A stretch of 64,000 nucleotides of DNA, taken from the sequence record NC_052659.1; one strand, given 5' to 3'. Made by a program: the position numbers and the translations under genes. Positions 3,546 to 35,973 of this stretch are shown here, piece by piece (the stretch's first letter is position 1; each line of letters starts with the position of its first letter). The stretch comes from Escherichia phage nieznany. A model generated the notes under the pieces. The model was given only the letters and a program-made list of their open reading frames with translations. It was not told the DNA's origin and did no database searches.

Positions 3546-3741
3546 CTACGATAACGACCCTAATATTATCCAGTTAACCCGACAAGAACTGATCACAATC
3601 ATTGAAGATGCTTTTATTGATGGCTGGAATACACAAGACAATGATTGGGGTGGACCCGAAGCTTTTCTGGAACATCATAAAGCTTATGGAGAATTTTGTG
3701 AAACCACTGTAGCTCTTGATAATCTGAAGGAGGGTTTGTAA
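3538..3741 (+). CDS. hypothetical protein
   Basis: ORF in tight early-gene array. Confidence 0.35.
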   Translation: MFNYDNDPNIIQLTRQELITIIEDAFIDGWNTQDNDWGGPEAFLEHHKAYGEFCETTVALDNLKEGL

Positions 3742-4304: not shown

Positions 4305-4575
4305 ATTCAATATTCAAGAAGAAAAAAGTCAGGATTTACCTATTGCTTTCGAAGATCTTGACGTAGGGGCCACATTCATGTATTATGATGCCTATGAAGA
4401 CGCAGGGTTGGATACCTACCGTAACTTGGTGTTCATTAAAAATTCCACAAACAGTGCGATTTGTATTAATGGATCACTAGCACAACGAGGCTATACTCAT
4501 TGCATCCCACCAGATACAAATATGGTGGAAGTAGATTTAGAAGTTACCAATATTACACTTAAGAAGGAGAAATAA
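4297..4575 (+). CDS. small protein, paralog A of duplicated Ter-associated ORF
   Basis: GTG start 6 nt after GAGGAGG; paralogous to 5597..5866 (shared DLDVG.TF, ITLK); directly precedes vWA gene. Confidence 0.45.
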   Translation: MFRFNIQEEKSQDLPIAFEDLDVGATFMYYDAYEDAGLDTYRNLVFIKNSTNSAICINGSLAQRGYTHCIPPDTNMVEVDLEVTNITLKKEK

Positions 4576-4576
4576 T

Positions 4577-5371: not shown

Positions 5372-5616
5372 TCGACGAGCTTGCCTCTCAAGTCGTAGAA
5401 AATTATTGGCGCGAGAGAGAAGCTTTCATTATGCGCAGTCTCAAAGAGTATTTCATTGGGACTGTGCGAATGGAAGATATTGTAAGTAGAGTAGAGATTC
5501 ATGTATGGCCCGATTATGAAGAATGGGTTGACAAAGAAAATGAAAATGCTATAATTCTTCGTATATACAAACCGGAGATAACATTAGGAGGAAGAAGTGT
5601 TAAACTTCGAAATTGA
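5368..5616 (+). CDS. hypothetical protein
   Basis: ORF overlapping neighbours by a few nt. Confidence 0.35.
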   Translation: MIDELASQVVENYWREREAFIMRSLKEYFIGTVRMEDIVSRVEIHVWPDYEEWVDKENENAIILRIYKPEITLGGRSVKLRN

Positions 5617-5866
5617 TGAGCAAAAAGTAAATAAACGATGCCTTACCATTAAAGATTTGGATGTAGGAGATACTTTCGTCTATGAAAATGCATTTGACGA
5701 AAATGGTTTAGACCTTAGTGAAATCATTGTTTATTTAAAAGTAGATGATGGGGAAAATGATTATTCTGCTGTAGAACTAAACCATCATGCACAATTAGTA
5801 TCAATCCAAAACACATCTAAGCTTTTGGAAGTAGAATTGACTGTAACTGGTATTACACTTAAATAA
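5597..5866 (+). CDS. small protein, paralog B of duplicated Ter-associated ORF
   Basis: GTG start after AGGAGG; paralog of 4297..4575; directly precedes TerD gene. Confidence 0.45.
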   Translation: MLNFEIDEQKVNKRCLTIKDLDVGDTFVYENAFDENGLDLSEIIVYLKVDDGENDYSAVELNHHAQLVSIQNTSKLLEVELTVTGITLK

Positions 5867-5881
5867 TAGAGGAGACAAAAG

Positions 5882-6484
5882 ATGACTGATAAAATTTCCC
5901 TGAAAAAAGGCTCTAGCGAAAAAATTTCCCTGAAGAAAGTTGCTCCGGCTCTGAAAGAACTGCGCCTGGAATTCTCTTGGAAATCTGATTCTAAACTGGA
6001 TCTGGATGTAAGTGCACTGGTTTGTCGTCACAATGCCGCTGGCAATCCTGAAATGCTGTCTGCACGTCATCTGGTTTGCTATGCTAACAAGTTTGATCCT
6101 GAACGTTCTACCTTCGCTGGTGACGATGTTCGTGATGGGACTGGCAGCATGGAGCAGATTGATATTACTCTGGCTAAAATCTCTCCTGATGCACAAGAGA
6201 TTGCCTTTGTTCTGACCATTGATGATGATACAGGTCTGAAACGTTTTGGTCATGCTTCTGAAGGTATGCTTAAAATCTTCGACTCCGAGCGTAATGTGGA
6301 AATTCTGGATTTTGACTTCCTGGCTCCTGAAGTAGCTGGCAACACAATCTGCCACGTGGCTTCCCTGGTTCGTGAAGATGGAGAATGGAAGCTGAAAGCA
6401 TATGGTGTAGGTAAAGCTGGTCTGGATATTTGCGATGTGGTGATGGCCTTCGGTGGTAAAAAAGAATGGTATGAATGTCCATAA
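5882..6484 (+). CDS. TerD-domain protein (tellurite resistance TerD/TerE/TerZ family)
   Basis: N-terminal repeated KISLKKG/KISLKKV, central LTIDDDTG acidic patch, C-terminal GEWK.KAYGVGKAGLD, about 200 aa: pattern of TerD family. Confidence 0.7.
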   Translation: MTDKISLKKGSSEKISLKKVAPALKELRLEFSWKSDSKLDLDVSALVCRHNAAGNPEMLSARHLVCYANKFDPERSTFAGDDVRDGTGSMEQIDITLAKISPDAQEIAFVLTIDDDTGLKRFGHASEGMLKIFDSERNVEILDFDFLAPEVAGNTICHVASLVREDGEWKLKAYGVGKAGLDICDVVMAFGGKKEWYECP

Positions 6485-11242: not shown

Positions 11243-13021
11243 GTGTCGCACATTATAACTAAATATGGATTTGATGTTGATCTTAGCAAGGAAGGGCATA
11301 CAGGTTGTCCGCGCTGCATGAAAAATGGCAAGGATCGCTCTCGTAATAACCTGATGGTTTATGGATTAGATTCTAATGGAGAGCATAAAGGTGCTAAGTG
11401 CTTTGCGTGTGAATACACTATTCCTAGCGTAGAATGGTTACGAGAAAATGGTGAAGTTTTAGAAGAAGAGGAGGAGATTGTGGGTTCGGAATTTAATAAA
11501 CAGATTCATCGTAAAATTGTTCAAGAAACATCAACCAACCCACGTGGTTATCGAGGCATTAAAGAAAAAGTTTCATCTTTCTATGGTGTTCGTTATGAAT
11601 ACCGTCAGGAAGGGGATCAGATGGTAGTAGAAAGTTGTTTATATCCAACTACTATCGGTAAAGAATTGGTTGGTTTTAAGCGTCGTATTCATCCTAAAGA
11701 TTTCAGTAAACCTATTGGTCAAGTAGGTAAAGATGTAGATCTTTTTGGACAAATTCGTTTTGCAGACCGTTCTCATACTGTGGTAATTACAGGTGGTGAA
11801 CACGATGCTCTGGCAGCTTATCAAATGCTGTCTGAAAACTTGGACAACAAATATGAACTTCCAGCAGTAGTTAGTGGCACAACTGGTGAAACCAGTATGT
11901 ATAAACAAGTTCAGGCACAATACCCTTTCTTTGAAAAATTTAAGAAGATTATTGTTTGCATGGATAATGACAAAGCAGGTAATGAGGCATTTGAAAATAT
12001 TGTTAAGGTGCTGCCTCGTAACAAAGTCTACCGTATGCAGATGGATCTTAAGGATGCCAATCAGTATCTGGAAGAAGGTCGTGCAAAAGATTTCGTAAAA
12101 GCTTTTTGGAGTGCTCGTCTATACACCCCAGCAGGTGTTTATGCTTCTAATGTCTTGTATGAAGCTGCATTAGAATGCTTGGAATCCAAGATGATTACCT
12201 TGCCTCCTTTTATGCGTGTTGCTGCAAATATGCTGGGTGGTGGTTTAGTAGAGGAAGAGATTACAGTCATCCTGGCAAAGACCAGTATCGGTAAAACTTT
12301 GATGGTGAACGAGATCACCAAACATATTATTGTTGCGCACCCAGAACATACCCTAGGTATTCTGTCCTTGGAAGCAACTTATAAGAAATATTCTCGTAAC
12401 CTGTTGTCCTCGTTCCTGCATATTCCTCTACACAGGAAAACACCGGAAGAGAAATTTCAAATCTTGGAAGAGAATAAAGAAAAAATCCTAGATTTTTACG
12501 AAAGAGAAGATGGATCACCACGTTTTTATGTGTGTGATGATCGTGGAGCAGATGTGGAGTCTATCAAAGAAAAAGTTTTGGAGATGATCATCTATTTTGG
12601 AGTAACAATTCTTGTTATCGACCCTTATTCTGATTTGCTTTCTGGTATGGATGTTCAAGCCCAGGAAGAGTTAGCAACATGGTTGAAGCGCATCATGAAA
12701 GAGTATGCTATAACTATTATCGTCATCTCACACGTTAAGAAATCGGCTAATGGTGGCAATGAACACTTAACAGAGGACGATGCAATGGGTAGTAGTTTCT
12801 TGGCTAAAGGTGCTGGTATTACCTTGGCTTTGGAACGAGATAAAGCCGCTGAAGACCCTGTAGAACGCAATACGACTCATTGCTTTATCCTAAAAAACCG
12901 TGAGTTCTCGGAAACTGGTCCGGCAGGGCAGTTTTACTATGACATTAGAACTGCAACTCTGCATGACAAAGAGCAGTATTTCAACAATCCTGCTAATTTG
13001 CCTACGGATAGCAACTACTAA
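11243..13021 (+). CDS. bifunctional DNA primase/helicase (T7 gp4-like)
   Basis: N-terminal Zn finger CPRC...CFAC, TOPRIM-like region, Walker A SIGKT and Walker B ILVIDPY of DnaB-like helicase. Confidence 0.85.
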   Translation: MSHIITKYGFDVDLSKEGHTGCPRCMKNGKDRSRNNLMVYGLDSNGEHKGAKCFACEYTIPSVEWLRENGEVLEEEEEIVGSEFNKQIHRKIVQETSTNPRGYRGIKEKVSSFYGVRYEYRQEGDQMVVESCLYPTTIGKELVGFKRRIHPKDFSKPIGQVGKDVDLFGQIRFADRSHTVVITGGEHDALAAYQMLSENLDNKYELPAVVSGTTGETSMYKQVQAQYPFFEKFKKIIVCMDNDKAGNEAFENIVKVLPRNKVYRMQMDLKDANQYLEEGRAKDFVKAFWSARLYTPAGVYASNVLYEAALECLESKMITLPPFMRVAANMLGGGLVEEEITVILAKTSIGKTLMVNEITKHIIVAHPEHTLGILSLEATYKKYSRNLLSSFLHIPLHRKTPEEKFQILEENKEKILDFYEREDGSPRFYVCDDRGADVESIKEKVLEMIIYFGVTILVIDPYSDLLSGMDVQAQEELATWLKRIMKEYAITIIVISHVKKSANGGNEHLTEDDAMGSSFLAKGAGITLALERDKAAEDPVERNTTHCFILKNREFSETGPAGQFYYDIRTATLHDKEQYFNNPANLPTDSNY

Positions 13022-13554: not shown

Positions 13555-14349
13555 TTGAGCAAGTTGAACACACTTGATCAATATTACACTAACCCCGCTT
13601 ATGCGGGGTTCTTATGTGATAAGATCAAAGAAATTTTTGGAGAGGAAGCTAACTACGTAGAACCATCTGCGGGAGAAGGAGCTTTCTCTTCTTGTTTTAA
13701 AAACATAACTTCTTTTGATATTGATCCTAAGTTTGAAGATTGTATTGAGGCAGATTTTTTAGCTCAATCTGTAGAGTCTGTTGGTAGTGTAACTGCTTTT
13801 GTCGGTAATCCTCCGTTTGGAAAAAATGCTAGTCTTGCCATTAAGTTCTTTAACCATTGTGCTGAAATGTTGGATAACGAAGGTGGTATTTGTTTTATCT
13901 TGCCTCGCACATTTCAAAAAATCTTTTTTGCACACAAACTAAATCCCCACATGCATCTTCTTTACGAAGAAGAATGTCCAAAAGGATCTTTTATTCTTCA
14001 TGGAGAACCTTGGGATGTTCCTTGTGTATTCCAGATATGGACTAAACGCAACGAGAAGCGTTCTCCCGTTGTTTTAGGAGAAAATCGACTATTCGTATTA
14101 GGCAACAGTAAAGACTACGACATAGCCGTTAGGAGAGCGGGAGCAAGTGCAGGTAAAGTGTTATCAGAAGAAGATTCTTTATCTGAAGCATCTACCTATT
14201 TTTTAAAAGCCTTGACTTCTGATCTTAAAACGCGTATCATTGAGGCTTACCCGTTACTTAAAGCTGAAGCTAGTAAAACTGCGGGAGTAAGAAGTTTAAG
14301 TTTAAAAGAACTTCAGTGGGTTCTGGAGAACATTAGAAAGGAGGAATAG
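13555..14349 (+). CDS. putative DNA N6-adenine (or N4-cytosine) methyltransferase
   Basis: SAM-binding EPSAGEGAF followed by catalytic NPPF motif; TTG start after AAGGAGG. Confidence 0.55.
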   Translation: MSKLNTLDQYYTNPAYAGFLCDKIKEIFGEEANYVEPSAGEGAFSSCFKNITSFDIDPKFEDCIEADFLAQSVESVGSVTAFVGNPPFGKNASLAIKFFNHCAEMLDNEGGICFILPRTFQKIFFAHKLNPHMHLLYEEECPKGSFILHGEPWDVPCVFQIWTKRNEKRSPVVLGENRLFVLGNSKDYDIAVRRAGASAGKVLSEEDSLSEASTYFLKALTSDLKTRIIEAYPLLKAEASKTAGVRSLSLKELQWVLENIRKEE

Positions 14350-17300
14350 TGAGTAAGTTTACATGGGATATTGAAGCAAACGGATTGTTGAATAATGACA
14401 CTATTGATTATTTAGCTAGTCCTTATCGTCTCAAAGACACATTTCAAATGCACTGTATTGTCTTAGAGAACCATGAAACAGGAGAAATAGTAGCTTTCCA
14501 CGATGGCCCTAAATACATTTTTGATGGTCGTCCTTATGAAGAGTCAGATGATAAATATACATATGTTCTTAAAGAATATGTGGCGCAAGATTACACACAT
14601 TTTCAACTAAAAGATTTCCCAGATTTTATTAATCATGAAGGTTATTTTAAAGACAAGCCTGAATATTTGGTTGAAATGGCTGTGGCACACAACGGTATCA
14701 ACTATGACTGGTTGGCTACAAAACTGTTTTATGGATTAGATTACAGTGTTAAATATAACACGTGGGGTAAAAGCAAGGTAAAACTTATTGACTCCTTAAT
14801 TTTGAGTAAAGTGTTAAACCCAGATCGAAAGATTGAGGGCAAATCAGGACATAGTTTGGCAGCACTTTCTCGAAAGGCAGGTGGGGATGTAAAAATAGAT
14901 TTCCGTAAAGAGATTCCAGAAGAAGATCGATTTAAGACTTTTGCTGCGGATATGCTTTATTACTGTATCTATGACAACAAAGCCAATACGAGCGTATATA
15001 ATTACCTTATGGAAGAGTGGGGTGATTATGATAAATGGGAAGGTCCATTTGAACTTGAACAACGTGTAGCAGACATTATTACACGCCAGGAACACCGTGG
15101 GTTTGCTTTTAACATGAAGCAAGCAGAAGAGAACCTTGCTTTTTTAGATGCAGAAATGGAGCGTCTTCGTTTACTCGTTGAGCCTATTTTGCCACCTAAA
15201 CCAGCAACAAAAGGTTATCTTAAGGCTTTTATTCCACCTAAGTTGCAAATTAAAAAGAACTTAGAGCCAACTAACCATATGATCAATTTTGCTAAGAAAC
15301 ATGATGGTCATTTGGAAGAGAGGGATGGAGATTGGTGGTTAGTGATGTTGGGGAAAGAGTGGAAACTGCCAGTTGCAGCAGATGAGCCTTTGTGTGATCC
15401 TAATATCCCTGCAACATTGAACGATACAACCCATATTAAAAACTGGCTTGTAGGATTAGGTTGGGTACCATCGGAATATAAAGATAAAGATTTGACTCTT
15501 AAATCTGGCACCAAGATTAAAAAGAGTGAGGAAGAACTTCAGAAAGGTATTCGAGCTTACGTTGAGCAAACTCTATCTTCTAATTTTTGTCAAGACCGTT
15601 GTGATCATCTGGAGTGCACACCGGAAACCTTGGAAAGGAAGATTCAAGAGCGTATAGCAAAAGGTAAAGGTCGAGGTCTTAAAGTATTGACTAACCCATG
15701 TTTTACCAAAGGTCAGGAAAAAGAAATCTGTCCTAACCTGCAAGCTTTGGGTGAGAAATTTCCTTATGCTACACAGATTGTAGAATACTTAACGTATAAA
15801 CACCGTAGGAACTCTATTTTAGGTGGTGGTGCCGATTGGGAAGAAGACGAAGAAGATCAAGAATACAACAAAGGTTTCTTGGCAGCAGTTCGTGCAGATG
15901 GACGTATACCTACGCCAGCGGCTACATGCGATGCAGCAACCTCTCGTATGAAGCATAGGTCTGTAGCCAATATTCCTCGTGTTACCTCTTTGTTTGGATG
16001 GCAGATGCGTAACCTGTTTGGTGTAGAGGTTCCTAAATACTTCCAGATTGGTTATGACTTTGATTCATTAGAGGCGAAGATTGAGTCGCATTATACGTGG
16101 AGATATGATAATCCTGATCATGCTTACTGTAATGCACTTCTGTTAGAAAAACCAAACGATGTGCATACTATGATGGCAAAACATATTACTGATATTATTG
16201 GACGTAAGTTTGAACGTGGTCCTGCTAAGAGCGTTAAATACGGTTGTGTACCTGTAGATAATACGGAAGTGTTAACAAGAACGGGTTGGAAGAAACGTAA
16301 AGATCTTTTTGTAGGGGATGAAGTTTTATCTTATAATACTCACACCGCTCTTTACGAATATACCCCTATTCTTAAGCTGTGGGACTATAACGATGCAGAA
16401 GTTGTCTCTCTCGGTAACAAGTGGTTCAAAGTAGAAGTTACTAACGATCATATGTGGATTAACGCACAGAGAAAAACTATGCGATCAGATGGTAACAATG
16501 TTAAGTATATGCAAGTGGAGCGTAGATCTACAGAGGATTTAAACTCGGAGTCAAACATAATTGCAGCAGGGCGATCTGGTGTGGTGTCTACTCTAACAGT
16601 GGAAGAAGGTCGTTTCTTAGGCTGGCTTCTTTCGGATGGCTACTATAAGTGGTCTGGCAAAGCCAGAAATAAAGTAATGGGTATTACAGTCACGGTAGAT
16701 CAAGATGAGAAAAAATTCTTAGAAGAAGCACGTGAGGCTGTGGGAGATATCTTCACATTTGACGAGTATGTATCTGGAACGATGCATTCATTACGTCCTA
16801 ATAAGAGTCAGTTTAGGGAATTTTTGACTAAATGTGGCGTTGAAGTGGGTCAAAATAAGCACGAAGTGGACTGGTCTACATTAATTGCTAATCAAGGTCA
16901 AGCTGTGTTGGAAGCATTCTTAGAGGCATTCTGGATGGCAGATGGTCATAAGCGTCCAAACGGCAGTCTTGTTATCCGTCAAAAGAAAGGTAAGATTAGC
17001 GACGCTGTTTCTTTGGCTATCAATATGACAGGTAATATTGCGTATGGTTCTGTTCAAAAAGATGGCATGTTAACGTTGGCAATCAATAACGGACAAACTA
17101 TTTCAGGACAGAGGTTGACAAAAGCTTTTTCACGAGTAACAGATGTATTCTGTATCTCAACCAAGAATGAATCTTTTGTTATGCGTCAGAATGGTTTTAT
17201 CACGTTGACAGGTAACTGCACGTACGGCGCTCAAGCAGACAAGGTTGCTAAAACAATTGGTAGCGATAAATACACAGGGCAACTGGTGTTCGATGCTTTC

Positions 17301-17918
17301 TGGGAAGCTGCATTCCCACTGGCGCGTCTTAAAGAACGTTTAAACGATTTCTGGGTTAAGACTGGTAAACAGTATGTTTTGGGTATTGACGGTCGTAAGG
17401 TTCCTACTCGTTCTGCTCACGCGATTCTTAACTCTCTGTTCCAAAGTGGTGGGGTTATCTGTGCTAAACGTGCAATGGTTATTTATGACGACATGATCGA
17501 AGAAGAAGGGCTAAGTGTTGACTTCTTTAAAGATGACTGGAAGAATAAAGACTTCGTGCAACAAATGATTGCATATCACGATGAAGCCCAGCTTGAAGTT
17601 TCTCGTAACCTTGTAGAATTTAAATGGTTTTCACCTGAATCATTAGGTTGGAAGAAAGTAGACGATCCTGAAGAACAAAAGAAAATTGATAAAGAATGCC
17701 TTGCTAAAGTTGAAGAATGGAAGCATAATAAGGAAAAAGAGACAGGGCAAATTTGGGCTAACATTCATGAATCTCCCAAAGGTGGATGGTTTACAGCCTA
17801 TAGTCGGGCAGGTGAACTTGCTGCTTTAGCTGTTACTAAGGCTGGAGAATTTTACAATCTTAATGTTCAGCTTACTGCCGGATATGATGTGGGTAACTCC
17901 TGGGCGAGCTGCCATTAG
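14349..17918 (+). CDS. family A DNA polymerase with 3'-5' exonuclease domain, interrupted by an intein
   Basis: Exo I DIEANGL; motif A GYDFDSLEAK; motif B RGPAKSVKYG|intein|CTYGAQADK (compare T7 RDNAKTFIYGFLYGAG); motif C YHDE. Confidence 0.9.
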   Translation: MSKFTWDIEANGLLNNDTIDYLASPYRLKDTFQMHCIVLENHETGEIVAFHDGPKYIFDGRPYEESDDKYTYVLKEYVAQDYTHFQLKDFPDFINHEGYFKDKPEYLVEMAVAHNGINYDWLATKLFYGLDYSVKYNTWGKSKVKLIDSLILSKVLNPDRKIEGKSGHSLAALSRKAGGDVKIDFRKEIPEEDRFKTFAADMLYYCIYDNKANTSVYNYLMEEWGDYDKWEGPFELEQRVADIITRQEHRGFAFNMKQAEENLAFLDAEMERLRLLVEPILPPKPATKGYLKAFIPPKLQIKKNLEPTNHMINFAKKHDGHLEERDGDWWLVMLGKEWKLPVAADEPLCDPNIPATLNDTTHIKNWLVGLGWVPSEYKDKDLTLKSGTKIKKSEEELQKGIRAYVEQTLSSNFCQDRCDHLECTPETLERKIQERIAKGKGRGLKVLTNPCFTKGQEKEICPNLQALGEKFPYATQIVEYLTYKHRRNSILGGGADWEEDEEDQEYNKGFLAAVRADGRIPTPAATCDAATSRMKHRSVANIPRVTSLFGWQMRNLFGVEVPKYFQIGYDFDSLEAKIESHYTWRYDNPDHAYCNALLLEKPNDVHTMMAKHITDIIGRKFERGPAKSVKYGCVPVDNTEVLTRTGWKKRKDLFVGDEVLSYNTHTALYEYTPILKLWDYNDAEVVSLGNKWFKVEVTNDHMWINAQRKTMRSDGNNVKYMQVERRSTEDLNSESNIIAAGRSGVVSTLTVEEGRFLGWLLSDGYYKWSGKARNKVMGITVTVDQDEKKFLEEAREAVGDIFTFDEYVSGTMHSLRPNKSQFREFLTKCGVEVGQNKHEVDWSTLIANQGQAVLEAFLEAFWMADGHKRPNGSLVIRQKKGKISDAVSLAINMTGNIAYGSVQKDGMLTLAINNGQTISGQRLTKAFSRVTDVFCISTKNESFVMRQNGFITLTGNCTYGAQADKVAKTIGSDKYTGQLVFDAFWEAAFPLARLKERLNDFWVKTGKQYVLGIDGRKVPTRSAHAILNSLFQSGGVICAKRAMVIYDDMIEEEGLSVDFFKDDWKNKDFVQQMIAYHDEAQLEVSRNLVEFKWFSPESLGWKKVDDPEEQKKIDKECLAKVEEWKHNKEKETGQIWANIHESPKGGWFTAYSRAGELAALAVTKAGEFYNLNVQLTAGYDVGNSWASCH
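16245..17216 (+). mobile_element. intein (324 aa) with LAGLIDADG homing endonuclease, inserted in polymerase motif B
   Basis: Starts with Cys after KYG; ends ...FITLTGN before Cys+1; LAGLIDADG-like LGWLLSDGYY and LEAFWMADGH; excision restores motif B. Confidence 0.7.
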
Positions 17919-17947
17919 TCTAACATGTTGTTTATTAAGGAGGTTTT

Positions 17948-18526
17948 ATGGTTTATGATCATGGTGTTTTTGATGGAGATATTACCGTAAGATCTCCTGA
18001 AGGAGTTATGCATCCTGCTTATATGAAATGGATGGCTATGTTGGGGAGGTGTTACTCCCCTTGCCAGCAGGTAAGAGATGTTGCCTACCACGGTGTTACG
18101 GTTTGTGATGATTGGAAGTTATTCTCTAACTTCTATTCTTGGTTACAAACTTGGGACAACTGGGAAAAATTAGAACTTGACAAGGATCTTATAGGAGGGG
18201 GCGTTTACTCCCCTGCTTCTTGCTTGATGATTTCTGGAAACCTTAATAAGTTCTTAGCTTATAGGAAGAAGACGGGGCAAATGGTAGGTTGTAATTACGA
18301 AAAGGATCGCAAGAAATATAAGGCCCATATAAAAGTAGACGGTCGTATTATAACACTCGGACGTTTTGATACTGAACTTGAGGCACATCTTTGTTGGTTG
18401 AAAGCTAAAGCAGAACAACTCACAAAGTTTTTTGAAATAGAAGACAAGAGAGTTGTTCCTTATCTTAAAGCATTGTATAATGAAATGCTTGAGCACGTAG
18501 AACAACACAAAGAGTGGACACGATAG
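17948..18526 (+). CDS. AP2-domain DNA-binding protein, putative homing-endonuclease-like
   Basis: C-terminal YKAHIKVDGRIITLGRFDTELEAHLCW matches AP2 domain; N-terminal Y..W..M..RC motif common in phage HNH-AP2 proteins; no clear HNH catalytic motif seen. Confidence 0.5.
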   Translation: MVYDHGVFDGDITVRSPEGVMHPAYMKWMAMLGRCYSPCQQVRDVAYHGVTVCDDWKLFSNFYSWLQTWDNWEKLELDKDLIGGGVYSPASCLMISGNLNKFLAYRKKTGQMVGCNYEKDRKKYKAHIKVDGRIITLGRFDTELEAHLCWLKAKAEQLTKFFEIEDKRVVPYLKALYNEMLEHVEQHKEWTR

Positions 18527-20165: not shown

Positions 20166-21098
20166 ATGTCCGTAATTAATACTGAAACTGATCGTAAAGG
20201 CAAAACCGTAACTTATGCAACTGGTATCGTAGACTACGTCAAACTGGATAAATTCGCTGAACCTAAAACTTTTCATTGGGAAGGAAAAACGATTGTTTCA
20301 ACTCACCGAGCCTCTCTTGTTCTGAAAGAGAAAGGTGCTAAACCAGATGAGAAAGGTGTTTGGATTTCTCTTGGTGACATTGAACTGAAAGAAGGTTATG
20401 AAAACCTGCAAGTCAAAGAAGGTGATAATTGGATCACTATTGAAAAAGGTGTAGAAGTAAGTATTGATATTGATCGCGTTGATAATAAAGGCGGTAAAAC
20501 TTACTACAATACTAAAAAATCTCGTATTACAGTATTGTCTACCGATGGTGTTCAGAAGTCTAACAAATCTTCTGGCAATAAAGGTTCCAACGATGCTGCT
20601 CCTAAGCAGTCCTATAAAAAACGTGATACTGTAGGTCTGGAAACTGGTCACGCAGTAAATGGTGCACTGGAACTGATTCGTAATGGTGTTAAAGGCGATG
20701 CTTTCGATATCGCTGGGGTTGTTCAATCTGCAACTGTCACGCTGAAATCTGAAATTGCTGAATCTCGTGGCGTTGATATTAATGATTATGATCTTGGGGC
20801 ATCTGTTGGTCACGCTATTCTCAATGCTTGTAAAGACCATACCATTAAGACTGTCTCTGTAGAAGATCTGATTGATTCTGCTCGTAAAGTTCTGGCTCTG
20901 TCTGATAAAGTTGCTGCTGCCATTCGTGGTTCCGCAGAACAGCCTAAGAAAGAAGAGAAGAAAGAAGTTAAGAAACCTGAACCACAACCAGAACCAACTC
21001 CAAGTAATCAAGAAGAACCTCCAATGGACTTCGACGATGATATTCCATTTGCCCCTATTGGACTGCAATATGGTCGAAACTTCCTGCATTGCTTCTAA
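20166..21098 (+). CDS. ssb: single-stranded DNA-binding protein
   Basis: OB-fold-like N-terminus, Gly/Ser/Pro-rich linker, acidic C-terminal tail MDFDDDIPF matching the bacterial SSB tail. Confidence 0.8.
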   Translation: MSVINTETDRKGKTVTYATGIVDYVKLDKFAEPKTFHWEGKTIVSTHRASLVLKEKGAKPDEKGVWISLGDIELKEGYENLQVKEGDNWITIEKGVEVSIDIDRVDNKGGKTYYNTKKSRITVLSTDGVQKSNKSSGNKGSNDAAPKQSYKKRDTVGLETGHAVNGALELIRNGVKGDAFDIAGVVQSATVTLKSEIAESRGVDINDYDLGASVGHAILNACKDHTIKTVSVEDLIDSARKVLALSDKVAAAIRGSAEQPKKEEKKEVKKPEPQPEPTPSNQEEPPMDFDDDIPFAPIGLQYGRNFLHCF

Positions 21099-21564
21099 GG
21101 TTTGTTTCAAGTGTGGGGTGTTAAAGCCCCTCACTGAATTTTACAAACATAAAGCTATGGCTGACGGTCACGTCAATAAATGCAAGGAATGTAATAAGAA
21201 AGATGTTAAACAGAATCGTAAAGATAAATCTGAATATTACAAAGAGTATGATAAAAACAGAGATCAGACCCCAGAGCGCAAAGCTTTGAAAGAGGCTTAC
21301 GCAAAAGGGAAAGGTAAAAATAAGGCCAATGAAGCTAAGAAACGTTACATCGAAAAGAATCCGAAAAAACGTTCTGCTCATATAGCTGTAGGTAACGCAC
21401 TCCGAGATGGAAAGTTAGTAAAACAACCTTGCCAAGTGTGTGGGTCTGTTGATGTTCATGCTCATCATTGTGATTATGATAAACCGTTAGATGTTCTATG
21501 GCTGTGTCCTCTACACCATGAGGCTTGGCATCAAGAACATGGTGAAGGATTGAACGCTGAATAA
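21070..21564 (+). CDS. HNH homing endonuclease
   Basis: CFKCG...CKEC zinc-finger-like N-terminus and HNH core VHAHHCDYDKPLDVLWLCPLHHEAWH; ATG 21070 overlaps SSB 3' end; alternative ATG 21037. Confidence 0.75.
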   Translation: MVETSCIASKVCFKCGVLKPLTEFYKHKAMADGHVNKCKECNKKDVKQNRKDKSEYYKEYDKNRDQTPERKALKEAYAKGKGKNKANEAKKRYIEKNPKKRSAHIAVGNALRDGKLVKQPCQVCGSVDVHAHHCDYDKPLDVLWLCPLHHEAWHQEHGEGLNAE

Positions 21565-21600
21565 AAGAAAAGGGAACCTTTACGGGTTCCCTTTTTTATT
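21563..21600. terminator. bidirectional rho-independent terminator
   Basis: GGGAACC..GGTTCCC hairpin flanked by A-run upstream and TTTTTT downstream; between convergent genes. Confidence 0.65.
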
Positions 21601-29805: not shown

Positions 29806-30345
29806 TTACTGAGTAGGTCTATCAGGCCACTGAATGTTGTTCAAGTCTTTCAGATCTAATAGAACTAAAGATGCTCGGTATAACTTAACAGCTTTTAACC
29901 ATTTTTCTTGTTCCTCTGACAAACCTTGCAACTCCTGCAAATCTGTCAAAGCACCTATTTGGTTTCCAGCCCACGTCAATTCTGTCTCTAGTGTAGTATC
30001 CACGTCTTCTTGTGTCCAAGTATTGTGTTTTTCAAAAGTTGTTCCGTTATATCTCCATTGTCTTGGATATTCGGTCATACCTTTTGGAACACTATCTGTA
30101 ACAACAACACGCATATTGTGGGGGAATAATCCTACCGCATCTTCCCCTACACCTAAAACTAAATTATCAGTATTCAAACTAACAAAATATGCATCAGGAT
30201 ACTTAGCATCCAACTCTTTCGACAAATCGTACCAATCCCTGCCAGACGAATCTCTTAAAAATCCTACCCCTAAACCAATTAAAAAGAGCGTATCTTCATT
30301 AGGTTCTGGAGTATATAGTTCAAAACCATCGTAAACAATGTTCAT
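29806..30345 (-). CDS. hypothetical protein (possible tail fiber assembly protein)
   Basis: Position immediately downstream of fiber gene; no motif. Confidence 0.3.
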   Translation of the reverse strand: MNIVYDGFELYTPEPNEDTLFLIGLGVGFLRDSSGRDWYDLSKELDAKYPDAYFVSLNTDNLVLGVGEDAVGLFPHNMRVVVTDSVPKGMTEYPRQWRYNGTTFEKHNTWTQEDVDTTLETELTWAGNQIGALTDLQELQGLSEEQEKWLKAVKLYRASLVLLDLKDLNNIQWPDRPTQ

Positions 30346-30360
30346 TATTTATTCTCCTAC

Positions 30361-31392
30361 TTAGTAGCTTACTGTTACCCATCCACCATTTACATAGTAC
30401 TGCAATGGCCCAGACCAATAAGAAGCACCACGAAGTTCTTTCTTATTACCGAAAGCCCAACCAGTCATAACGTGACCAGCATAGTAAGGGGATTCTGATA
30501 CACCTAACTGAATACGTCCATTAATACGAACTGCCGTTACACGTGCATTCACTTGACTTTGAAGGGAGTTTATTTGATTTTGTAAGCTGTTTTGCAAATT
30601 ATCAATACGAGAATTTAAATTGCTATTAACATTATTCAAATTGTTTTGAACACTGTTAATGTTTGTTTGTAATGTATTTTGAAGAGAGCTTAAACGAGAG
30701 TTCAAATAATCTAAGCGGACCAAAGCATTTCCATTTGAAGTGTCTTGTCCATTGTTTGATCTTGGATTATCGATTAGAACATAACCCGCATCATATAAAC
30801 GAACGCCAGCAGCTACACTACCTGTGCTAGGATTTCTACGATAAATGTAAAGCTGACCACCGCTTTGATACTCAGCAGAAATCTCACCATTTGTTTGTCC
30901 TGCAAAGTTTTTGAAGAATAGAGTTGCAGGATCTGTTGTGGAAGTGCCATTAACATAGATATCTCCGCCGTAAATAGCACCACCTGCGTCACGTTTTACC
31001 AATACATTTGGTGTTACTATGGAACTAGTAGCATCTGTAATATTTGCCGACAAGTGATTATGACTGTTATCTAGAACTTGAATAGATAAAGTAACTTCTT
31101 TATCACCATTCCAAGTAGCCTCACCAGTAGCATCACCTGCCATTGTAATCTTAGTTCCAACTAAAGGTAAGTAAGTATTAGGTAAAGTTGGAAGAAAGTC
31201 ATCTACCAAATAGCGAATCCATAAACCGATATTATTAAGAATCCAGTTCATTTCTTCGCAAGTCATGATTTGACCATAATCCATACCAACTGTGCGGATG
31301 GTTTCTTTAGGTCTAATTTTGTTTGTGTTTAAAGTTCCTGGGAGCGTTACAGTTTGTGTAGCCCAGTCAGGATAATATATTGGCTTCGCCAT
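30361..31392 (-). CDS. tail fiber protein with Asn/Gln-rich coiled-coil repeats
   Basis: NINSVQNNLNNVNSNLNSRIDNLQNSLQNQINSLQSQVNA heptad-like repeats. Confidence 0.4.
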   Translation of the reverse strand: MAKPIYYPDWATQTVTLPGTLNTNKIRPKETIRTVGMDYGQIMTCEEMNWILNNIGLWIRYLVDDFLPTLPNTYLPLVGTKITMAGDATGEATWNGDKEVTLSIQVLDNSHNHLSANITDATSSIVTPNVLVKRDAGGAIYGGDIYVNGTSTTDPATLFFKNFAGQTNGEISAEYQSGGQLYIYRRNPSTGSVAAGVRLYDAGYVLIDNPRSNNGQDTSNGNALVRLDYLNSRLSSLQNTLQTNINSVQNNLNNVNSNLNSRIDNLQNSLQNQINSLQSQVNARVTAVRINGRIQLGVSESPYYAGHVMTGWAFGNKKELRGASYWSGPLQYYVNGGWVTVSY

Positions 31393-33521: not shown

Positions 33522-33763
33522 TAGTCATCCTCTTTGGTAGATTGTGATCTGCCCCAACGTAAATCAATAAGATTTTTCATGAGGCGAGAAGGGGTTATCA
33601 TGAAAACAAAAGCCCAACCCATCCATTCAGGAATTTCTTTTTCTATTCCTAAAAAGATAAACATGCCTGTCATAACCGACATGCCTACAGCGTTCCAGAC
33701 TTTAGTAGAACTGACTTTATTATCAGGATATGTACAGAACATACCTATTAAAAATTTTCTCAT
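33521..33763 (-). CDS. small two-TM membrane protein, holin-like
   Basis: Two hydrophobic segments and charged C-terminus RWGRSQSTKEDD. Confidence 0.3.
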   Translation of the reverse strand: MRKFLIGMFCTYPDNKVSSTKVWNAVGMSVMTGMFIFLGIEKEIPEWMGWAFVFMITPSRLMKNLIDLRWGRSQSTKEDD

Positions 33764-34068
33764 AGTGCGTTCTCATTACTTTTTAAATCACGAGATACAA
33801 CTAATTCCCCAAGGTCTACAGAACCCGCTGAATGCACAAATACAGCAGCACTAAGACTAATGGCAGTAGTACCTGGGGCAATATCAGCAGGTAGGGAATA
33901 CGCCCTTTGCGTCTCCTTATCATAGATAACCTTATACCCACCCAAATCCACACCAACTGAGAAGTAAACAACCTCAGATTGTTTAACTCCAAAGTGACGG
34001 GCTACTGCTTGTTTATTGGTTAAGATTCCGGTTGAACCTTTACCACCTTGTGAGAACATTTCGTTCAT
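33760..34068 (-). CDS. hypothetical structural protein
   Basis: ORF in baseplate module. Confidence 0.35.
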   Translation of the reverse strand: MNEMFSQGGKGSTGILTNKQAVARHFGVKQSEVVYFSVGVDLGGYKVIYDKETQRAYSLPADIAPGTTAISLSAAVFVHSAGSVDLGELVVSRDLKSNENAL

Positions 34069-34088
34069 AACGACCTCTTTGTTTTTCT

Positions 34089-34116
34089 AAAAAACCCCTC
34101 CGAAGAGGGGTGCTTA
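34089..34116 (-). terminator. rho-independent terminator (minus strand)
   Basis: CCCCTC-CGAA-GAGGGG hairpin with A-run on plus side. Confidence 0.45.
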
Positions 34117-34141
34117 TTAATACTAACAATAGTCGATGTTT

Positions 34142-34423
34142 TCAACAGTCAATACTAGTTGCTGCGTAAGGAGGCGCTAATTTTGTGGGAACGTGACGCT
34201 GTTCGAAAGCAACGCACGCAGCGGCATACAGTGCATCTATTGCAGGCAACGGAAACATCGACAGTGCACAGGCGTCACGAAACTCGTTCAGATCAGGCTT
34301 ATTCCCATAGACTTTAACGGCAATATTTGGTTTAAGGTAAAAACCAGCACTCCACCCATCACCCCGTACTTCAAGAATGGCAACGCCAACCGCTGTAAAT
34401 TTTTCAAATTTCATCTTAAACAT
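34142..34423 (-). CDS. hypothetical protein
   Basis: ORF. Confidence 0.35.
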   Translation of the reverse strand: MFKMKFEKFTAVGVAILEVRGDGWSAGFYLKPNIAVKVYGNKPDLNEFRDACALSMFPLPAIDALYAAACVAFEQRHVPTKLAPPYAATSIDC

Positions 34424-34614
34424 TCTCCATAGATTCGTTGTTATGAGCAGAATTTTCTCGGTCTAACTCTGCCTGTAATGCATTCATCGCTACAGTAAAG
34501 GCAGGAACTTCCTGCCCAGTTAAATTAACTCTCAGCATAAACTGCATGATATTTTGAATAGTTTGCTTATCCATGATTATTCCTATTAAGTTGGGCCAAT
34601 AAGACCGTGTGTGA

Positions 34615-35973
34615 TTAGAGCATCAGATAATTTTTTACATATCTGGCCAATTCTACCAGCGTCATTGTTTCGGTATTTTTGACCGTGCCATCCGCTGTTC
34701 CACCTAGCTGGAAAATTCCAGTTTGTCTGACTGAAAGAACTTTAGTGCTGTTTATAGATATGTTCATATTTCTGAAGTTAAATGCACCTGTCGCATCTTC
34801 GTAACCAATCCACTTCGTTACTCCGGCGACCGGACCCCAGTAAATCCTATGGTCTATATCTAAGTTTATTGCATTACTTTCTTGAAATCTCGCACCAAGA
34901 GTGTTCAGACCATATGTGAAGTTGATTCCAGTTCCGTCAGCCCGTGGACCAAGTTTTATTCCTCCATAACGATGAAGGTTAGACACTGACCCTTCGATTT
35001 TCAGCTGTTGAGTATCTTCCAAATAAGCATTTTTCCAATCTCCGGAAGGGAGCACACCACCCCTTCTAAGCCTCATGCCTATCCACCAGCCAGACTCTCC
35101 TACTGGACGGTTTGAGCCATCTCCAACGTCAATTCCAATACCACAAGCTGAACCACCGTCCGCAGTAGTAACGATAAGACCTCGATAAGGCCCCTCCCCT
35201 GTGGGAAGGTTTTCCGGATGAGGCTGAGATGAGAATGAATTCACCAGATTTAATTCACATCCGACTAACTGAGAAGAGCGCACTCCAGAGCCATCATTAC
35301 CATTCCCTGCCTGACCCCAAAGACCCCAAACCCTCCCGTTTCGTCCTATAGCTTTACCAGAACCATGTACGCCTATAGCGTCAACTGATTTTCCAGAGGT
35401 TAATACATCACCAGCCGAAGATCTTACATAGCCCGAGACACCAATCCCAAAGGCTGACGCCTCCGGTTCAAGGGTTATCGTTCCCTGCATAGCAACATCA
35501 AACCATTTTGTGCCCCCCTCTTCCCTTTTCATCTTGGAGGTTTTTTCTGCCCAGATTAATGGGTAAGGGTTTTCGGCTCCGGCTCCGGGTAAACCGCGCT
35601 TTAATTTGAACCCACCAGAATAGTTCCTAAACGAAGGATATATATTAAACGTTGCATCAACAGTATTGGGCCAATACCCTTCTGGGACAAGGTAGGTAAG
35701 GCCCGTGTTGTTCGCGGCAGTAATAGCTACCGTATTGGATTCGGAATCCCCTTTGGCTCCGCCAGCGAACCCACCCCACGTAATTGGTTTTGGAATATCA
35801 CCAATAAGACCAGCCCCACCTGAATCTTTCAACTGGGTGGCTAAAACCACCCCAGTGTCAGTAAGAAAGTTGGAAACTGTGCTTTTAACAGTCTTATCAG
35901 GTTGATCTAAAACCAGGTAATCTGAACCATTAACTTTTGATGTTTCGGGTAAATTAGTAATTGTAGTTGACAT
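34615..35973 (-). CDS. tail/baseplate structural protein
   Basis: 452 aa Gly-rich beta-rich ORF in tail module. Confidence 0.4.
   Translation of the reverse strand: MSTTITNLPETSKVNGSDYLVLDQPDKTVKSTVSNFLTDTGVVLATQLKDSGGAGLIGDIPKPITWGGFAGGAKGDSESNTVAITAANNTGLTYLVPEGYWPNTVDATFNIYPSFRNYSGGFKLKRGLPGAGAENPYPLIWAEKTSKMKREEGGTKWFDVAMQGTITLEPEASAFGIGVSGYVRSSAGDVLTSGKSVDAIGVHGSGKAIGRNGRVWGLWGQAGNGNDGSGVRSSQLVGCELNLVNSFSSQPHPENLPTGEGPYRGLIVTTADGGSACGIGIDVGDGSNRPVGESGWWIGMRLRRGGVLPSGDWKNAYLEDTQQLKIEGSVSNLHRYGGIKLGPRADGTGINFTYGLNTLGARFQESNAINLDIDHRIYWGPVAGVTKWIGYEDATGAFNFRNMNISINSTKVLSVRQTGIFQLGGTADGTVKNTETMTLVELARYVKNYLML

What the first reader, a model, noticed from the sequence alone, without database searches (positions are those of the whole stretch)
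20166..21564. HNH homing endonuclease gene overlapping the 3' end of the SSB gene, and an AP2-domain gene after the polymerase
The HNH ORF (core VHAHHCDYDKPLDVLWLCPLHHEAWH) starts inside the last ~30 nt of ssb in another frame. An AP2-domain protein (17948..18526) sits directly after the polymerase gene, which itself carries an intein endonuclease. Three selfish endonuclease-type elements are thus packed around the core replication genes.
Basis: partly seen in the sequence, partly recalled or inferred. Interest (0 to 1): 0.5.

Follow-up and report, generated by a model that had tools for sequence, protein, structure and literature searches.

The report
Homing endonuclease that rewrites SSB's tail
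The small nuclease gene after the phage's single-strand-binding protein gene is a mobile selfish element of a large family that inserts exactly after the last codon of replication proteins ending in the acidic "DDIPF" tail, and here it adds 15 conserved amino acids onto that tail.

Summary
The window is a Phapecoctavirus (phAPEC8/rV5-like) genome. Compared with phAPEC8, the replication module carries three extra segments: a 324-aa intein in PolA (16245-17216), an AP2-like ORF after pol (17948-18526) and an HNH cassette after ssb (21051-21560). Each is present or absent independently in relatives that are 95-99% identical, so the selfish-element reading holds.

The HNH belongs to a large family (at least 997 protein clusters). 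In about 70 of the 80 closest viral loci it lies directly behind a gene whose product ends in the acidic tip (...DDIPF). The bodies of those upstream proteins fall into 12 unrelated clusters.

The cassette sits exactly between the Phe codon and the stop codon. Three independent +/- pairs show this: Phapecoctavirus ssb, Guelphvirus ssb and Seunavirus primase/helicase. The host protein therefore gains either one residue (usually Asn) or a 14-17-aa extension (APIGLQYG..[IL][YH].[LIF]).

The "last 30 nt of ssb" that overlap the HNH start are therefore cassette DNA. The extension is conserved as a peptide (synonymous sites near saturation, few replacements). It also persists where the HNH has been lost. 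Cleavage, homing and the extension's function are untested. I rate this a new variant of a known kind, of moderate-to-good interest.

The parts
20166..21050 (+). Native part of the SSB gene (295 codons), ending ...EEPPMDFDDDIPF
21051..21098 (+). Cassette-borne in-frame extension of SSB, APIGLQYGRNFLHCF plus stop; contains the HNH start codon
   Evidence: Absent from phAPEC8, SF1-1 and UP17; present in ZCKP1, PsgM04F and DE16. The same kind of extension is appended to unrelated SSBs and to a primase/helicase. In the first 8 codons pN is 0-0.36 against pS 0.5-1.1 in comparisons between lineages.
21070..21564 (+). HNH (beta-beta-alpha-metal) endonuclease ORF, 164 aa, +1 frame relative to ssb, 29-nt overlap
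   Evidence: phrog_2340 'endonuclease' E 1.5e-48. At least 997 homologous clusters. All family-invariant Cys/His residues are present. AF2 pLDDT 95, with a zinc ribbon, a helical region and a C-terminal beta-beta-alpha unit. The top Foldseek hits are beta-beta-alpha-Me nucleases, but with weak E-values.
21051..21560 (+). The whole HNH cassette (about 510 nt), which replaces about 30 nt of the HNH-free allele including the ssb stop codon
   Evidence: Alignment A1. Window-versus-phAPEC8 blastn gap at 21050-21560.
21568..21595 (.). Hairpin terminator shared by the convergent ssb/HNH unit and the tail gene; lies outside the cassette
   Evidence: Terminator-like site. Conserved in HNH-free phAPEC8, where it is annotated as a terminator.
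17948..18526 (+). AP2-like ORF (192 aa) inserted between the polymerase gene and the next small ORF; the insertion spans about 17941-18522
   Evidence: Present or absent among close relatives. phrog_953 'HNH endonuclease' E 8e-67, covering profile positions 198-399 of 420 only. The family profile hits plant AP2/ERF domains at E 8e-4, and 9 of 25 relatives hit Pfam AP2. 100% identical to nieznany_206.
17901..17918 (+). Last codons of polA, recoded synonymously in AP2-plus alleles (GCG AGC TGC CAT TAG against GCA TCC TGT CAT TGA)
   Evidence: Alignment A2: the window, SF1-1 and UP17 share one version; phAPEC8 and ZCKP1 share the other.
16245..17216 (+). Intein (324 aa) with a LAGLIDADG-type endonuclease domain, inserted in polymerase motif KYG|(I>C)TYGAQ
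   Evidence: Protein alignment with the 865-aa polymerases. Cys1, C-terminal Asn and +1 Cys, with motifs FLGWLLSDG and FLEAFWMADG. Pfam LAGLIDADG_3 E 0.0023, below the curated cut-off. PI-PkoII E 0.0012.
14349..17918 (+). Family A DNA polymerase gene that hosts the intein

Best explanation
The ORF at 21070-21564 is a free-standing HNH homing endonuclease gene. It belongs to a large phage family whose homing site is the DNA that encodes the acidic C-terminal tip (...D-D-I/V/T-P-F-stop) of replication proteins, mostly SSBs and occasionally a primase/helicase.

**Inferred mechanism.**
1. In a mixed infection the enzyme nicks or cuts a cassette-free allele at or near the Phe-stop junction.
2. Repair copies the cassette from the cassette-bearing genome. 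The tip-coding bases serve as the left homology arm.
3. The insertion splits the site, so the carrier genome is immune.

**Effect on the host gene.** Because the cassette begins right after the Phe codon, the host reading frame runs into it. Most cassettes begin AAY-stop and so add one Asn. Many of these bring their own promoter-like sequences and a hairpin. The lineage in this window instead begins with 15 sense codons (APIGLQYGRNFLHCF). It has no promoter of its own, and its weakly SD-preceded ATG lies inside that extension. It is therefore probably co-transcribed with ssb and translated at a low level by coupling to ssb.

**The extension.** It is a conserved peptide that travels with the cassette and stays behind when the nuclease gene decays.

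**The other two elements.** The intein in polA and the AP2-like ORF after polA are two further, independent mobile elements of the same general kind.

**Shown here:** the anatomy, the insertion boundaries, the sporadic distribution, the target association and the peptide-level conservation. **Inferred:** cleavage, homing, immunity and the mode of expression.
For: **1. Presence or absence at identical flanks.** 112 phage records match the region and most lack the HNH. Of 150 records that match the ssb 3' end, only 10 (8 phages) continue past the Phe codon. Three of those phages have an intact HNH and five have it deleted.

**2. Exact junctions.**
- phAPEC8 reads ...ATCCCATTC|TAA...; the window reads ...ATTCCATTT|GCCCCT....
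- Guelphvirus: CEB_EC3a and Rtp end ...DDIPF* or ...SDIPF*; ACG-M12 and phiEB49 end ...DDIPF+APIGLQYGMSNIYVL*, followed by a homologous HNH.
- Seunavirus primase/helicase: EC152 ends ...DFDNDTPF*; GAP31 ends ...DTPF+APIGLQYANHAIYAL*, followed by an HNH.

**3. Target association.**
- In the 80 closest IMG/VR loci, about 70 HNH genes are preceded within 100 nt by an ORF ending in an acidic ...PF tip.
- The HNHs form one blastp cluster. The upstream protein bodies form 12 clusters with no detectable similarity between them. The window's HNH is closer (60%) to copies behind unrelated SSBs than to copies behind rV5-type SSBs (56%).

**4. Control.** ORFs ending DDIPFN* are followed by this HNH family in 77 of 108 cases. 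ORFs ending DDDIPF* are followed by it in 2 of 104 (Fisher p = 3e-29).

**5. DNA-level fixation at the junction.** In the DDIPFN* set, Pro is CCT in 90 of 97 and Phe is TTT in 96 of 97. The native set uses mixed codons.

**6. The nuclease looks intact.** Every family-invariant residue is present: C12, C15, C38, C41, C121, C124, H132, H133, Y136, P139, W144, C146, H150, H154. The AF2 model is confident (pLDDT 95) and has a C-terminal beta-beta-alpha unit. The best structural neighbours are Hpy99I, Cap5 HNH, T5 SciA and Gme HNH.

**7. Decay stages of a homing cycle.** DE16 keeps the 5' 50 nt and the 3' ~17 nt of the HNH gene. L009, L010 and L014 keep only the extension. In L011 the HNH body is replaced by another ORF.

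**8. Expression context.** No sigma-70-like site lies between ssb and the HNH, and a shared terminator follows.
Against: - No cleavage, nicking or homing data exist for any member that I could find.
- The 80 loci are the closest relatives of one query, so the target preference may not hold for the whole family. One of the two more distant members I examined (SKA49) sits behind a protein ending ...GMPF, not behind a clear SSB.
- About half of the extension-bearing tips have no HNH. Some of these could be natural alleles rather than scars.
- The cleavage site could lie away from the insertion point, as it does for T4 SegG.
Confidence: 0.8

Rival explanations
1. The HNH protein is not selfish. 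It is a functional accessory nuclease of the replication/recombination module that works with SSB, and the gene order ssb-HNH is vertically inherited and lost now and then.
For: The gene sits in replication/recombination modules such as ERF-SSB-HNH in temperate phages. Its expression appears coupled to ssb. HNH proteins with housekeeping roles in phages are known, for example in cos packaging (cited in PMC6316719).
Against: - Only about 3 of the phages behind ~150 related isolate records carry an intact copy.
- Two HNH variants about 67% identical to each other occupy the same site between flanks that are 96-99% identical.
- The same nuclease family follows 12 unrelated protein bodies and also a primase/helicase.
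- Internal-deletion scars exist.
- Junction DNA is fixed across unrelated hosts.
Confidence: 0.07
2. The extended SSB tail (IPF plus about 15 aa) is an older, natural SSB variant with its own function. This HNH lineage merely homes to the end of such extended genes, so the extension is target rather than cargo.
For: - 12 of 21 extension-bearing tips have no HNH.
- In Justusliebigvirus the extension appears fixed without any HNH.
- About 28 of roughly 120 rV5-type SSB clusters carry it.
- It is under purifying selection.
Against: - In three independent lineages the closest cassette-free alleles end at Phe-stop, and the extension and HNH appear together.
- The extension-only Phapecoctavirus alleles retain both ends of the HNH ORF, so they are deletion derivatives.
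- The same extension is found on a primase/helicase.
- Its distribution across the SSB tree is patchy.
Confidence: 0.1
3. The overlap and the extension are artefacts: a sequencing or assembly frameshift at the end of ssb, or a chance read-through of no consequence.
For: The extension is predicted to be disordered (pLDDT below 50), and no proteomic evidence was available.
Against: The same 15 codons occur in independently sequenced genomes from several phage families, differing by synonymous changes. There are 6 synonymous and 0 replacement differences between the window and Justusliebigvirus over the 15 codons, and pN is much lower than pS overall. The boundaries are reproducible to the nucleotide.
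Confidence: 0.02

Closest known systems
Free-standing homing endonuclease genes of T-even phages, especially SegG (GIY-YIG) next to gene 32 (the T4 SSB), and MobE/F-type HNH genes. Basis: my knowledge and the review PMC2988022 listed.
   Same: - A stand-alone nuclease gene beside a conserved replication gene.
- Sporadic distribution among close relatives.
- Sequence differences at the neighbouring gene's end in carrier genomes.
- The expected outcome is marker exclusion and co-conversion in mixed infection.
   Different: - A different nuclease family from SegG.
- The insertion is not intergenic. It lies exactly between the last sense codon and the stop codon, so the host protein is altered.
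- The apparent target is a short motif shared by non-homologous proteins (the acidic ...PF tip), not one orthologous gene. This lets the element move between unrelated phage families.
Inteins and group I introns that carry homing endonucleases, such as the LAGLIDADG intein in this window's own polymerase.
   Same: The insertion is in frame at a highly conserved, functionally critical coding site. The insertion splits the recognition site, which gives immunity.
   Different: There is no splicing at the RNA or protein level. The added residues apparently stay on the host protein, unless an unknown protease removes them. The nuclease is translated separately, in another frame.
beta-beta-alpha-Me (HNH) nucleases with zinc-ribbon DNA-binding modules: Hpy99I, T4 endonuclease VII-like 'endonuclease' PHROGs, Gme HNH nickase, T5 SciA.
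   Same: A CxxC...C..[CH] zinc site and an HH...H motif in a predicted beta-beta-alpha unit. These are the top structural neighbours and the weak PHROG neighbours.
   Different: No significant sequence or structural match to any solved protein. The architecture is its own: an N-terminal four-Cys ribbon, then about 75 residues of helices (expanded to about 165 in some relatives), then the nuclease unit.
HNH-AP2 homing endonucleases of phages (PHROG 953/374/99 'HNH endonuclease'; AP2/ERF-type DNA-binding domain).
   Same: The ORF at 17948-18526 matches the C-terminal half of phrog_953. It has an AP2-like segment at the family level and behaves as an insertion next to polA.
   Different: It lacks the first ~197 profile positions and any catalytic His. 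Its conserved ELDKD...N motif may be a degenerate or non-canonical His-Me finger.

Membership tests
Free-standing homing endonuclease gene (HEG) | Sporadic presence or absence at the same locus among closely related genomes | tested here: met
   Eight of the phages behind ~150 matching records carry the cassette or its scar. The flanks are 95-99% identical.
Free-standing homing endonuclease gene (HEG) | Horizontal spread: nuclease phylogeny is incongruent with the host gene or genome | tested here: met
   One HNH cluster sits behind 12 unrelated protein bodies. The same cassette type occurs in Stephanstirmvirinae, Drexlerviridae, Vequintavirinae and temperate ERF-SSB phages.
Free-standing homing endonuclease gene (HEG) | The carrier allele differs from the empty allele at the presumed target, giving immunity | tested here: met
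   The Phe-stop junction is split by the insertion. Junction codons are fixed in carrier alleles. Whether this actually confers resistance is not testable here.
Free-standing homing endonuclease gene (HEG) | The enzyme cleaves or nicks the cassette-free allele, and the cassette is over-transmitted in crosses | not testable with these tools
   This needs biochemistry and phage crosses. No report was found.
HNH / beta-beta-alpha-Me nuclease superfamily | Conserved His/Asn/His-type catalytic motif with zinc-binding Cys pairs | tested here: met
   C121, C124, H132, H133, C146, H150 and H154 are invariant across 48 homologues and all are present in the window protein.
HNH / beta-beta-alpha-Me nuclease superfamily | Significant match to a curated HNH profile or to a solved HNH structure | tested here: inconclusive
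Bacterial-type SSB (OB fold plus acidic C-terminal tip) | OB-fold ssDNA-binding domain | tested here: met
Bacterial-type SSB (OB fold plus acidic C-terminal tip) | The acidic tip DDDIPF lies at the very C-terminus, with a free Phe carboxylate | tested here: not met
   The tip sequence EPPMDFDDDIPF is present and matches E. coli-type tails, but it is followed by 15 more residues in this allele. Relatives without the cassette do meet this feature.
AP2-domain homing endonuclease (HNH-AP2) | AP2/ERF-type DNA-binding domain | tested here: inconclusive
   The window protein alone gives no Pfam AP2 hit even at E 10. The family profile hits WRI1/ERF AP2 domains at E 8e-4, and 9 of 25 relatives hit PF00847, best E 3e-6.
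AP2-domain homing endonuclease (HNH-AP2) | HNH catalytic His residues | tested here: not met
   The invariant motif is E76-L-D78-K79-D80...Y87..C92...N100, with no conserved His. Only positions 198-399 of the 420-position phrog_953 profile are covered.
Intein with LAGLIDADG homing endonuclease | N-terminal Cys/Ser, C-terminal Asn, and a +1 Cys/Ser/Thr in the extein | tested here: met
   KYG|C...TLTGN|CTYGAQ. The intein-free allele has Ile at +1. The penultimate residue is Gly rather than the usual His.
Intein with LAGLIDADG homing endonuclease | Recognisable LAGLIDADG endonuclease domain | tested here: inconclusive
   Two motifs are visible by eye. Pfam LAGLIDADG_3 gives E 0.0023, below the curated cut-off. 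The intein endonuclease PI-PkoII gives E 0.0012.

The most novel reading that the evidence does not exclude
The 14-17-aa leader (consensus [AS][PS][ILV]GLQY....[IL][YH].[LIF]) is functional cargo. On this reading the homing endonuclease cassette carries a portable peptide module and grafts it onto the acidic ...PF tips of replisome proteins, both SSB and primase/helicase.

In E. coli SSB, and by analogy in T7 gp2.5 and gp4, partner binding uses the terminal Phe and its free carboxylate. Capping the tip should therefore change which partners, or which host surveillance systems, the protein engages. Alternatively the leader could be a pro-peptide that is removed to restore the tip.

Either way, a selfish element would be editing the interaction interface of its host's core replication proteins, and the edit would outlive the element.
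Probability: 0.3. Interest if true: 0.8.

Novelty: new variant of a known kind. Interest (0 to 1): 0.6.

Why it matters
Free-standing homing endonucleases in phage replication modules are well known, and the intein and the AP2-like ORF here are ordinary examples.

The unusual point is the target logic. A nuclease family appears to use a roughly 15-20-nt coding motif that is conserved for protein-interaction reasons across non-homologous SSBs and helicases. That would explain how one element family can move between unrelated phage families.

The second unusual point is the precise in-frame insertion, which changes the most conserved residues' context in SSB. This gives a directly testable system:
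- defined empty and filled alleles in cultivable coliphages;
- a small nuclease that is predicted with high confidence;
- natural 'scar' alleles for asking what a capped SSB tip does to replication, recombination and recognition by SSB-sensing defence systems.

There are also two practical points. Annotators mislabel this gene as 'baseplate wedge protein gp25'. SSB C-termini ending in IPFN or IPFAPIGLQY are useful markers of present or past invasion by this element.

Tried and rejected
- **Profile and sequence searches.** Pfam, NCBIfam and PDB searches with the HNH, the SSB body and the AP2-like ORF gave no usable hits.
- **Pattern scan of the bacterial/archaeal genome collection.** The IPF-xxx-GLQYG pattern returned 49 hits, of which 48 were chance matches inside unrelated ORFs. 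Only a Sodalis contig (presumably a prophage) was real. The extension therefore appears to be a phage feature.
- **SSB-HNH fusion by programmed frameshift.** I considered this because the HNH frame is open for 66 codons upstream of the ATG. There is no slippery site, relatives place the HNH in different frames relative to ssb, and the open stretch lies in a Lys/Glu/Pro-rich low-complexity region. I dropped the idea.
- **Conservation of the extension as a by-product of the HNH start region or the HNH frame.** I rejected this as the main cause for three reasons. Third codon positions vary freely. ACG-M12 has no ATG at that position. HNH-less lineages keep the peptide.
- **Own promoter for the HNH.** I found no sigma-70-like site, although many other cassettes of the family have TTGAC-N17-TAnnnT right at the ssb stop (read by eye).
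- **Literature.** No paper was found that links an HNH family to ssb 3' ends or to DDDIPF. Papers on SSB-sensing defences (DARNA, Retron-Eco8) point to the OB fold and ssDNA binding rather than the C-terminal tail, so they give no direct support for a defence-evasion role.
- **The 97-aa ORF that replaces the HNH in L011.** It has no Pfam match.
Full report
**What the window is.** The region matches 112 phage records at 80-99% identity, nearly all of them Phapecoctavirus (phAPEC8/rV5-like myoviruses, Stephanstirmvirinae). The AP2-like protein is 100% identical to a protein of Escherichia phage nieznany. The plus-strand gene order is: primase/helicase (11243-13021), a small ORF, a methyltransferase-like ORF, family A polymerase (14349-17918), the AP2-like ORF (17948-18526), three small ORFs, a nucleotidyltransferase, an unknown ORF, the SSB-like ORF (20166-21098) and the HNH ORF (to 21564). 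A hairpin terminator follows, and then convergent tail genes.

**Check of the observation.**
- The HNH reading frame is mechanically open from 20872. The ATG at 21070 gives a 164-aa product whose N-terminus (MVETSCIASKVCFKCG) matches gene calls for close homologues.
- It lies in the +1 frame and overlaps the last 29 nt of the ssb ORF.
- A blastn of the whole window against a composite of the phAPEC8 genome leaves five unmatched window segments. Three are the intein (16245-17219), the AP2-like ORF (17941-18522) and the HNH segment (21050-21560). Two lie in the tail-fibre region.

**The three elements are independently mobile.**
- phAPEC8 has none of them.
- SF1-1 and UP17 have only the AP2-like ORF.
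- ZCKP1 has the HNH and lacks the AP2-like ORF.
- nepoznato has a 1189-aa polymerase and a different HNH variant, about 67% identical at the protein level, at the same place.
- DE16 has a deleted HNH.

The intein runs from Cys633 to Asn956 and is followed by Cys, where intein-free polymerases have Ile. It interrupts the conserved KYG-ITYGAQ motif and holds two LAGLIDADG-like motifs. It matches Pfam LAGLIDADG_3 weakly (E 0.0023) and the intein endonuclease PI-PkoII (E 0.0012). ZCKP1 carries a homologous but shorter intein about 50 residues upstream, before CWRYEPE.

The AP2-like ORF replaces a short hairpin-containing spacer. In AP2-plus genomes the last five polymerase codons are recoded synonymously, including a Ser TCC-to-AGC switch. 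That pattern is what one expects at a homing site. The same ORF family sits directly after the polymerase gene in the sister genus Justusliebigvirus.

The AP2 assignment holds only at the family level: the profile hits WRI1/ERF at E 8e-4, and 9 of 25 relatives hit Pfam AP2. The family's invariant ELDKD...YSP..C...N motif has no histidine, so nuclease activity is doubtful.

**What the HNH cassette did to ssb.**
- HNH-free alleles read ...GAT GAT ATC CCA TTC TAA, followed by about 30 nt and the terminator. Their SSB ends ...EEPPMDFDDDIPF (295 aa).
- In the window and in ZCKP1 the sequence after the Phe codon is replaced by GCC CCT ATT GGA CTG CAA TAT GGT CGA AAC TTC CTG CAT TGC TTC TAA. The HNH ATG lies inside CAA-TAT-GGT.
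- SSB therefore becomes 310 aa and ends DDDIPF-APIGLQYGRNFLHCF.
- Of 150 isolate records that match the ssb 3' end, all but 10 lose homology at exactly the Phe codon. The 10 are eight phages. Three have an intact HNH (ZCKP1, Mt1B1_P17, PsgM04F). Five keep the extension plus only the two ends of the HNH ORF (DE16, 536P1, DIJ07P2, Ec-G1, ECO340P2).

**The same event in other phages.**
- Guelphvirus (Drexlerviridae): the HNH-free phage CEB_EC3a ends its 143-aa canonical SSB at ...EDDIPF-stop, and so does Rtp, of the neighbouring genus Rtpvirus, at ...DSDIPF-stop. ACG-M12 and phiEB49 end ...EDDIPF-APIGLQYGMSNIYVL, followed by a homologous HNH.
- Seunavirus (Vequintavirinae): the primase/helicase of EC152 ends ...DFDNDTPF-stop. 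In GAP31, whose flanks are 98.8% identical, it ends ...DFDNDTPF-APIGLQYANHAIYAL, followed by the HNH.
- Temperate ERF-SSB phages carry ASVGLQYGRHRIYAL or GYVGLQYGKHRIYAL with the HNH.

The extension therefore arrives with the nuclease gene. The insertion point is always between the Phe codon and the stop codon.

**The family's target.** The HNH has at least 997 homologous protein clusters and matches in 395 phage records.
- In the 80 closest IMG/VR loci, about 70 have an ORF ending in an acidic ...PF tip within 100 nt upstream of the HNH.
- With the last 30 residues removed, those upstream proteins fall into 12 blastp clusters with no similarity between clusters. The HNHs form a single cluster. 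The window's HNH is more similar to copies behind unrelated SSBs (60%) than to copies behind rV5-type SSBs (56%).
- Junction types among 76 scored loci: 20 have the native Phe-stop, 50 have one extra residue (Asn 39, Ser 5, Lys 3, Asp 2, Arg 1) and 6 have longer extensions.
- As a control, ORFs ending DDIPFN-stop are followed by this HNH family in 77 of 108 usable loci. ORFs ending DDDIPF-TAA are followed by it in 2 of 104 (p = 3e-29).
- In the DDIPFN set the Pro and Phe codons are almost fixed (CCT 90 of 97, TTT 96 of 97), while the native set uses all codons. The last bases of the host gene therefore behave as part of the mobile DNA or of its co-conversion tract.

Taken together, the tip-coding sequence is the only thing these host genes share. 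It is the most plausible recognition site and left homology arm.

**Is the extension more than read-through?**
- Among sequences found through HNH or SSB homology rather than through the extension itself, synonymous sites in the first eight codons are near saturation between lineages (pS 0.5-1.1). Replacement differences are few (pN 0-0.36).
- Between the window and Justusliebigvirus, which has no HNH and hence no overlapping frame, the 15 codons differ at six positions, all synonymous.
- In the rV5-type SSB family, 82 clusters end at IPF and about 28 carry a 14-17-aa extension with a common pattern ([AS][PS][ILV]GL[QP]Y....[ILM][HYSN][ACS][LIMF]). These are scattered among clades from 99% to 32% identity.
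- Of 21 extension-bearing tips found by pattern, 9 are followed by the HNH. In 12 the stop codon is followed by a terminator or by another ORF.
- The acidic tip itself stays conserved in front of the extension.

I conclude that the peptide is under selection. I cannot say for what. Possibilities I could not test are:
- a leader shaped to be harmless to tip function;
- a pro-peptide that is removed;
- a cap that changes partner choice;
- a handle for the nuclease itself.

Binding of the E. coli SSB tip to its partners uses the terminal Phe and its carboxylate. This is established knowledge of the SSB-Ct interaction (see also PMC5872125). An internal tip should therefore behave differently.

**The nuclease itself.**
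- All residues invariant in 48 homologues are present.
- The AF2 model is confident (pLDDT 95). It has a four-Cys ribbon (residues 9-38), five helices (39-112) and a beta-beta-alpha unit (130-157).
- No promoter-like site separates ssb from the HNH, and the ATG has only a weak GGA upstream. Expression is therefore probably by read-through transcription and coupling to ssb translation. That is inference.

**Verdict.** The base phenomenon, homing elements clustered in a phage replication module, is ordinary. The HNH element is a new variant of the free-standing homing endonuclease theme, in its tip-directed target choice and in its in-frame, conserved modification of SSB and helicase C-termini. 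I found no description of either feature in the searchable literature. No activity has been shown.

Noticed in passing
window 16245-17216; L002 (ZCKP1) polymerase 1632-4964: Homologous inteins occupy two different sites of the same polymerase in different Phapecoctavirus genomes. In the window the site is KYG|CTYGAQ. In ZCKP1 it is about 50 residues upstream, before CWRYEPE, and the intein there is shorter (245 aa). The window's intein has Gly-Asn rather than His-Asn at its C-terminus.
   Followed up: partly
window 17901-17918: The last five codons of polA are recoded synonymously in all AP2-plus genomes (GCG AGC/AGT TGC CAT TAG) relative to AP2-minus genomes (GCA/GCG TCC TGT CAT/CAC TGA/TAG). 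This looks like an immunised homing site for the AP2-like ORF.
   Followed up: partly
L407 and L408 (Justusliebigvirus PHB05, ECGD1); L010, L014: In the sister genus Justusliebigvirus the SSB is 315 aa with the same 15-aa extension, no HNH follows (terminator, then a methyltransferase), and the AP2-like ORF sits after the polymerase. The extension appears fixed there, long after any nuclease was lost.
   Followed up: partly
L015-L094, junctions listed: Many cassettes of the one-residue type carry a promoter-like TTGAC-N17-TAnnnT whose -35 box overlaps the SSB stop (AAT/AGT/GAT-TGA-C). Others carry TATAAT soon after AATTAG. They also have a hairpin of the form GTCCC...GGGAC and a second, out-of-frame copy of CCCTTTTAATT just downstream of the stop. 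These were read by eye only.
   Followed up: no
L011, L110, L115 (about 54-kb temperate-phage contigs): The SSB extension and the first ~9 codons of the HNH (ME.AESTHY) are kept, but the rest of the HNH is replaced by an unrelated 97-aa ORF with no Pfam match.
   Followed up: partly
P0037, P0065, P0067, P0079, P0101, P0105, P0116: Some family members are about 250 aa because the helical middle region is expanded by repeats rich in WEE/ENPEKW motifs. This region may be a variable DNA-recognition module.
   Followed up: no
L006 (nepoznato) 5525-5956; also AV125, phiWec188/190: A second HNH variant occupies the same site in Phapecoctavirus. It keeps the native SSB end (DDNIPF-stop, with an Asp-to-Asn change in the tip). 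Its start appears to be a TTG overlapping the stop (TTGA). Only its C-terminal 60% resembles the window's gene at the DNA level (84%).
   Followed up: partly
L410 (Escherichia phage SKA49) 583-1926: A more distant family member follows a 288-aa protein ending ...GGTGMPF-stop in a Chaseviridae phage and precedes a PolA fragment. RefSeq calls it 'baseplate wedge protein', a recurrent mis-annotation of this family.
   Followed up: no
window 29809-30604 and 33759-35823 (minus-strand tail genes): Two further segments have no blastn match in phAPEC8. They lie in tail-fibre or tail-protein genes and probably reflect exchange of receptor-binding domains.
   Followed up: no
window about 3545-3573: phAPEC8 has about 220 nt here that the window lacks. 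This is a small indel in the early region, with the direction opposite to the three insertions.
   Followed up: no
window 11243-13021: The window's own primase/helicase ends ...PTDSNY and has no acidic ...PF tip. The Seunavirus homologue ends ...DFDNDTPF and has been invaded by the same cassette type in GAP31.
   Followed up: partly
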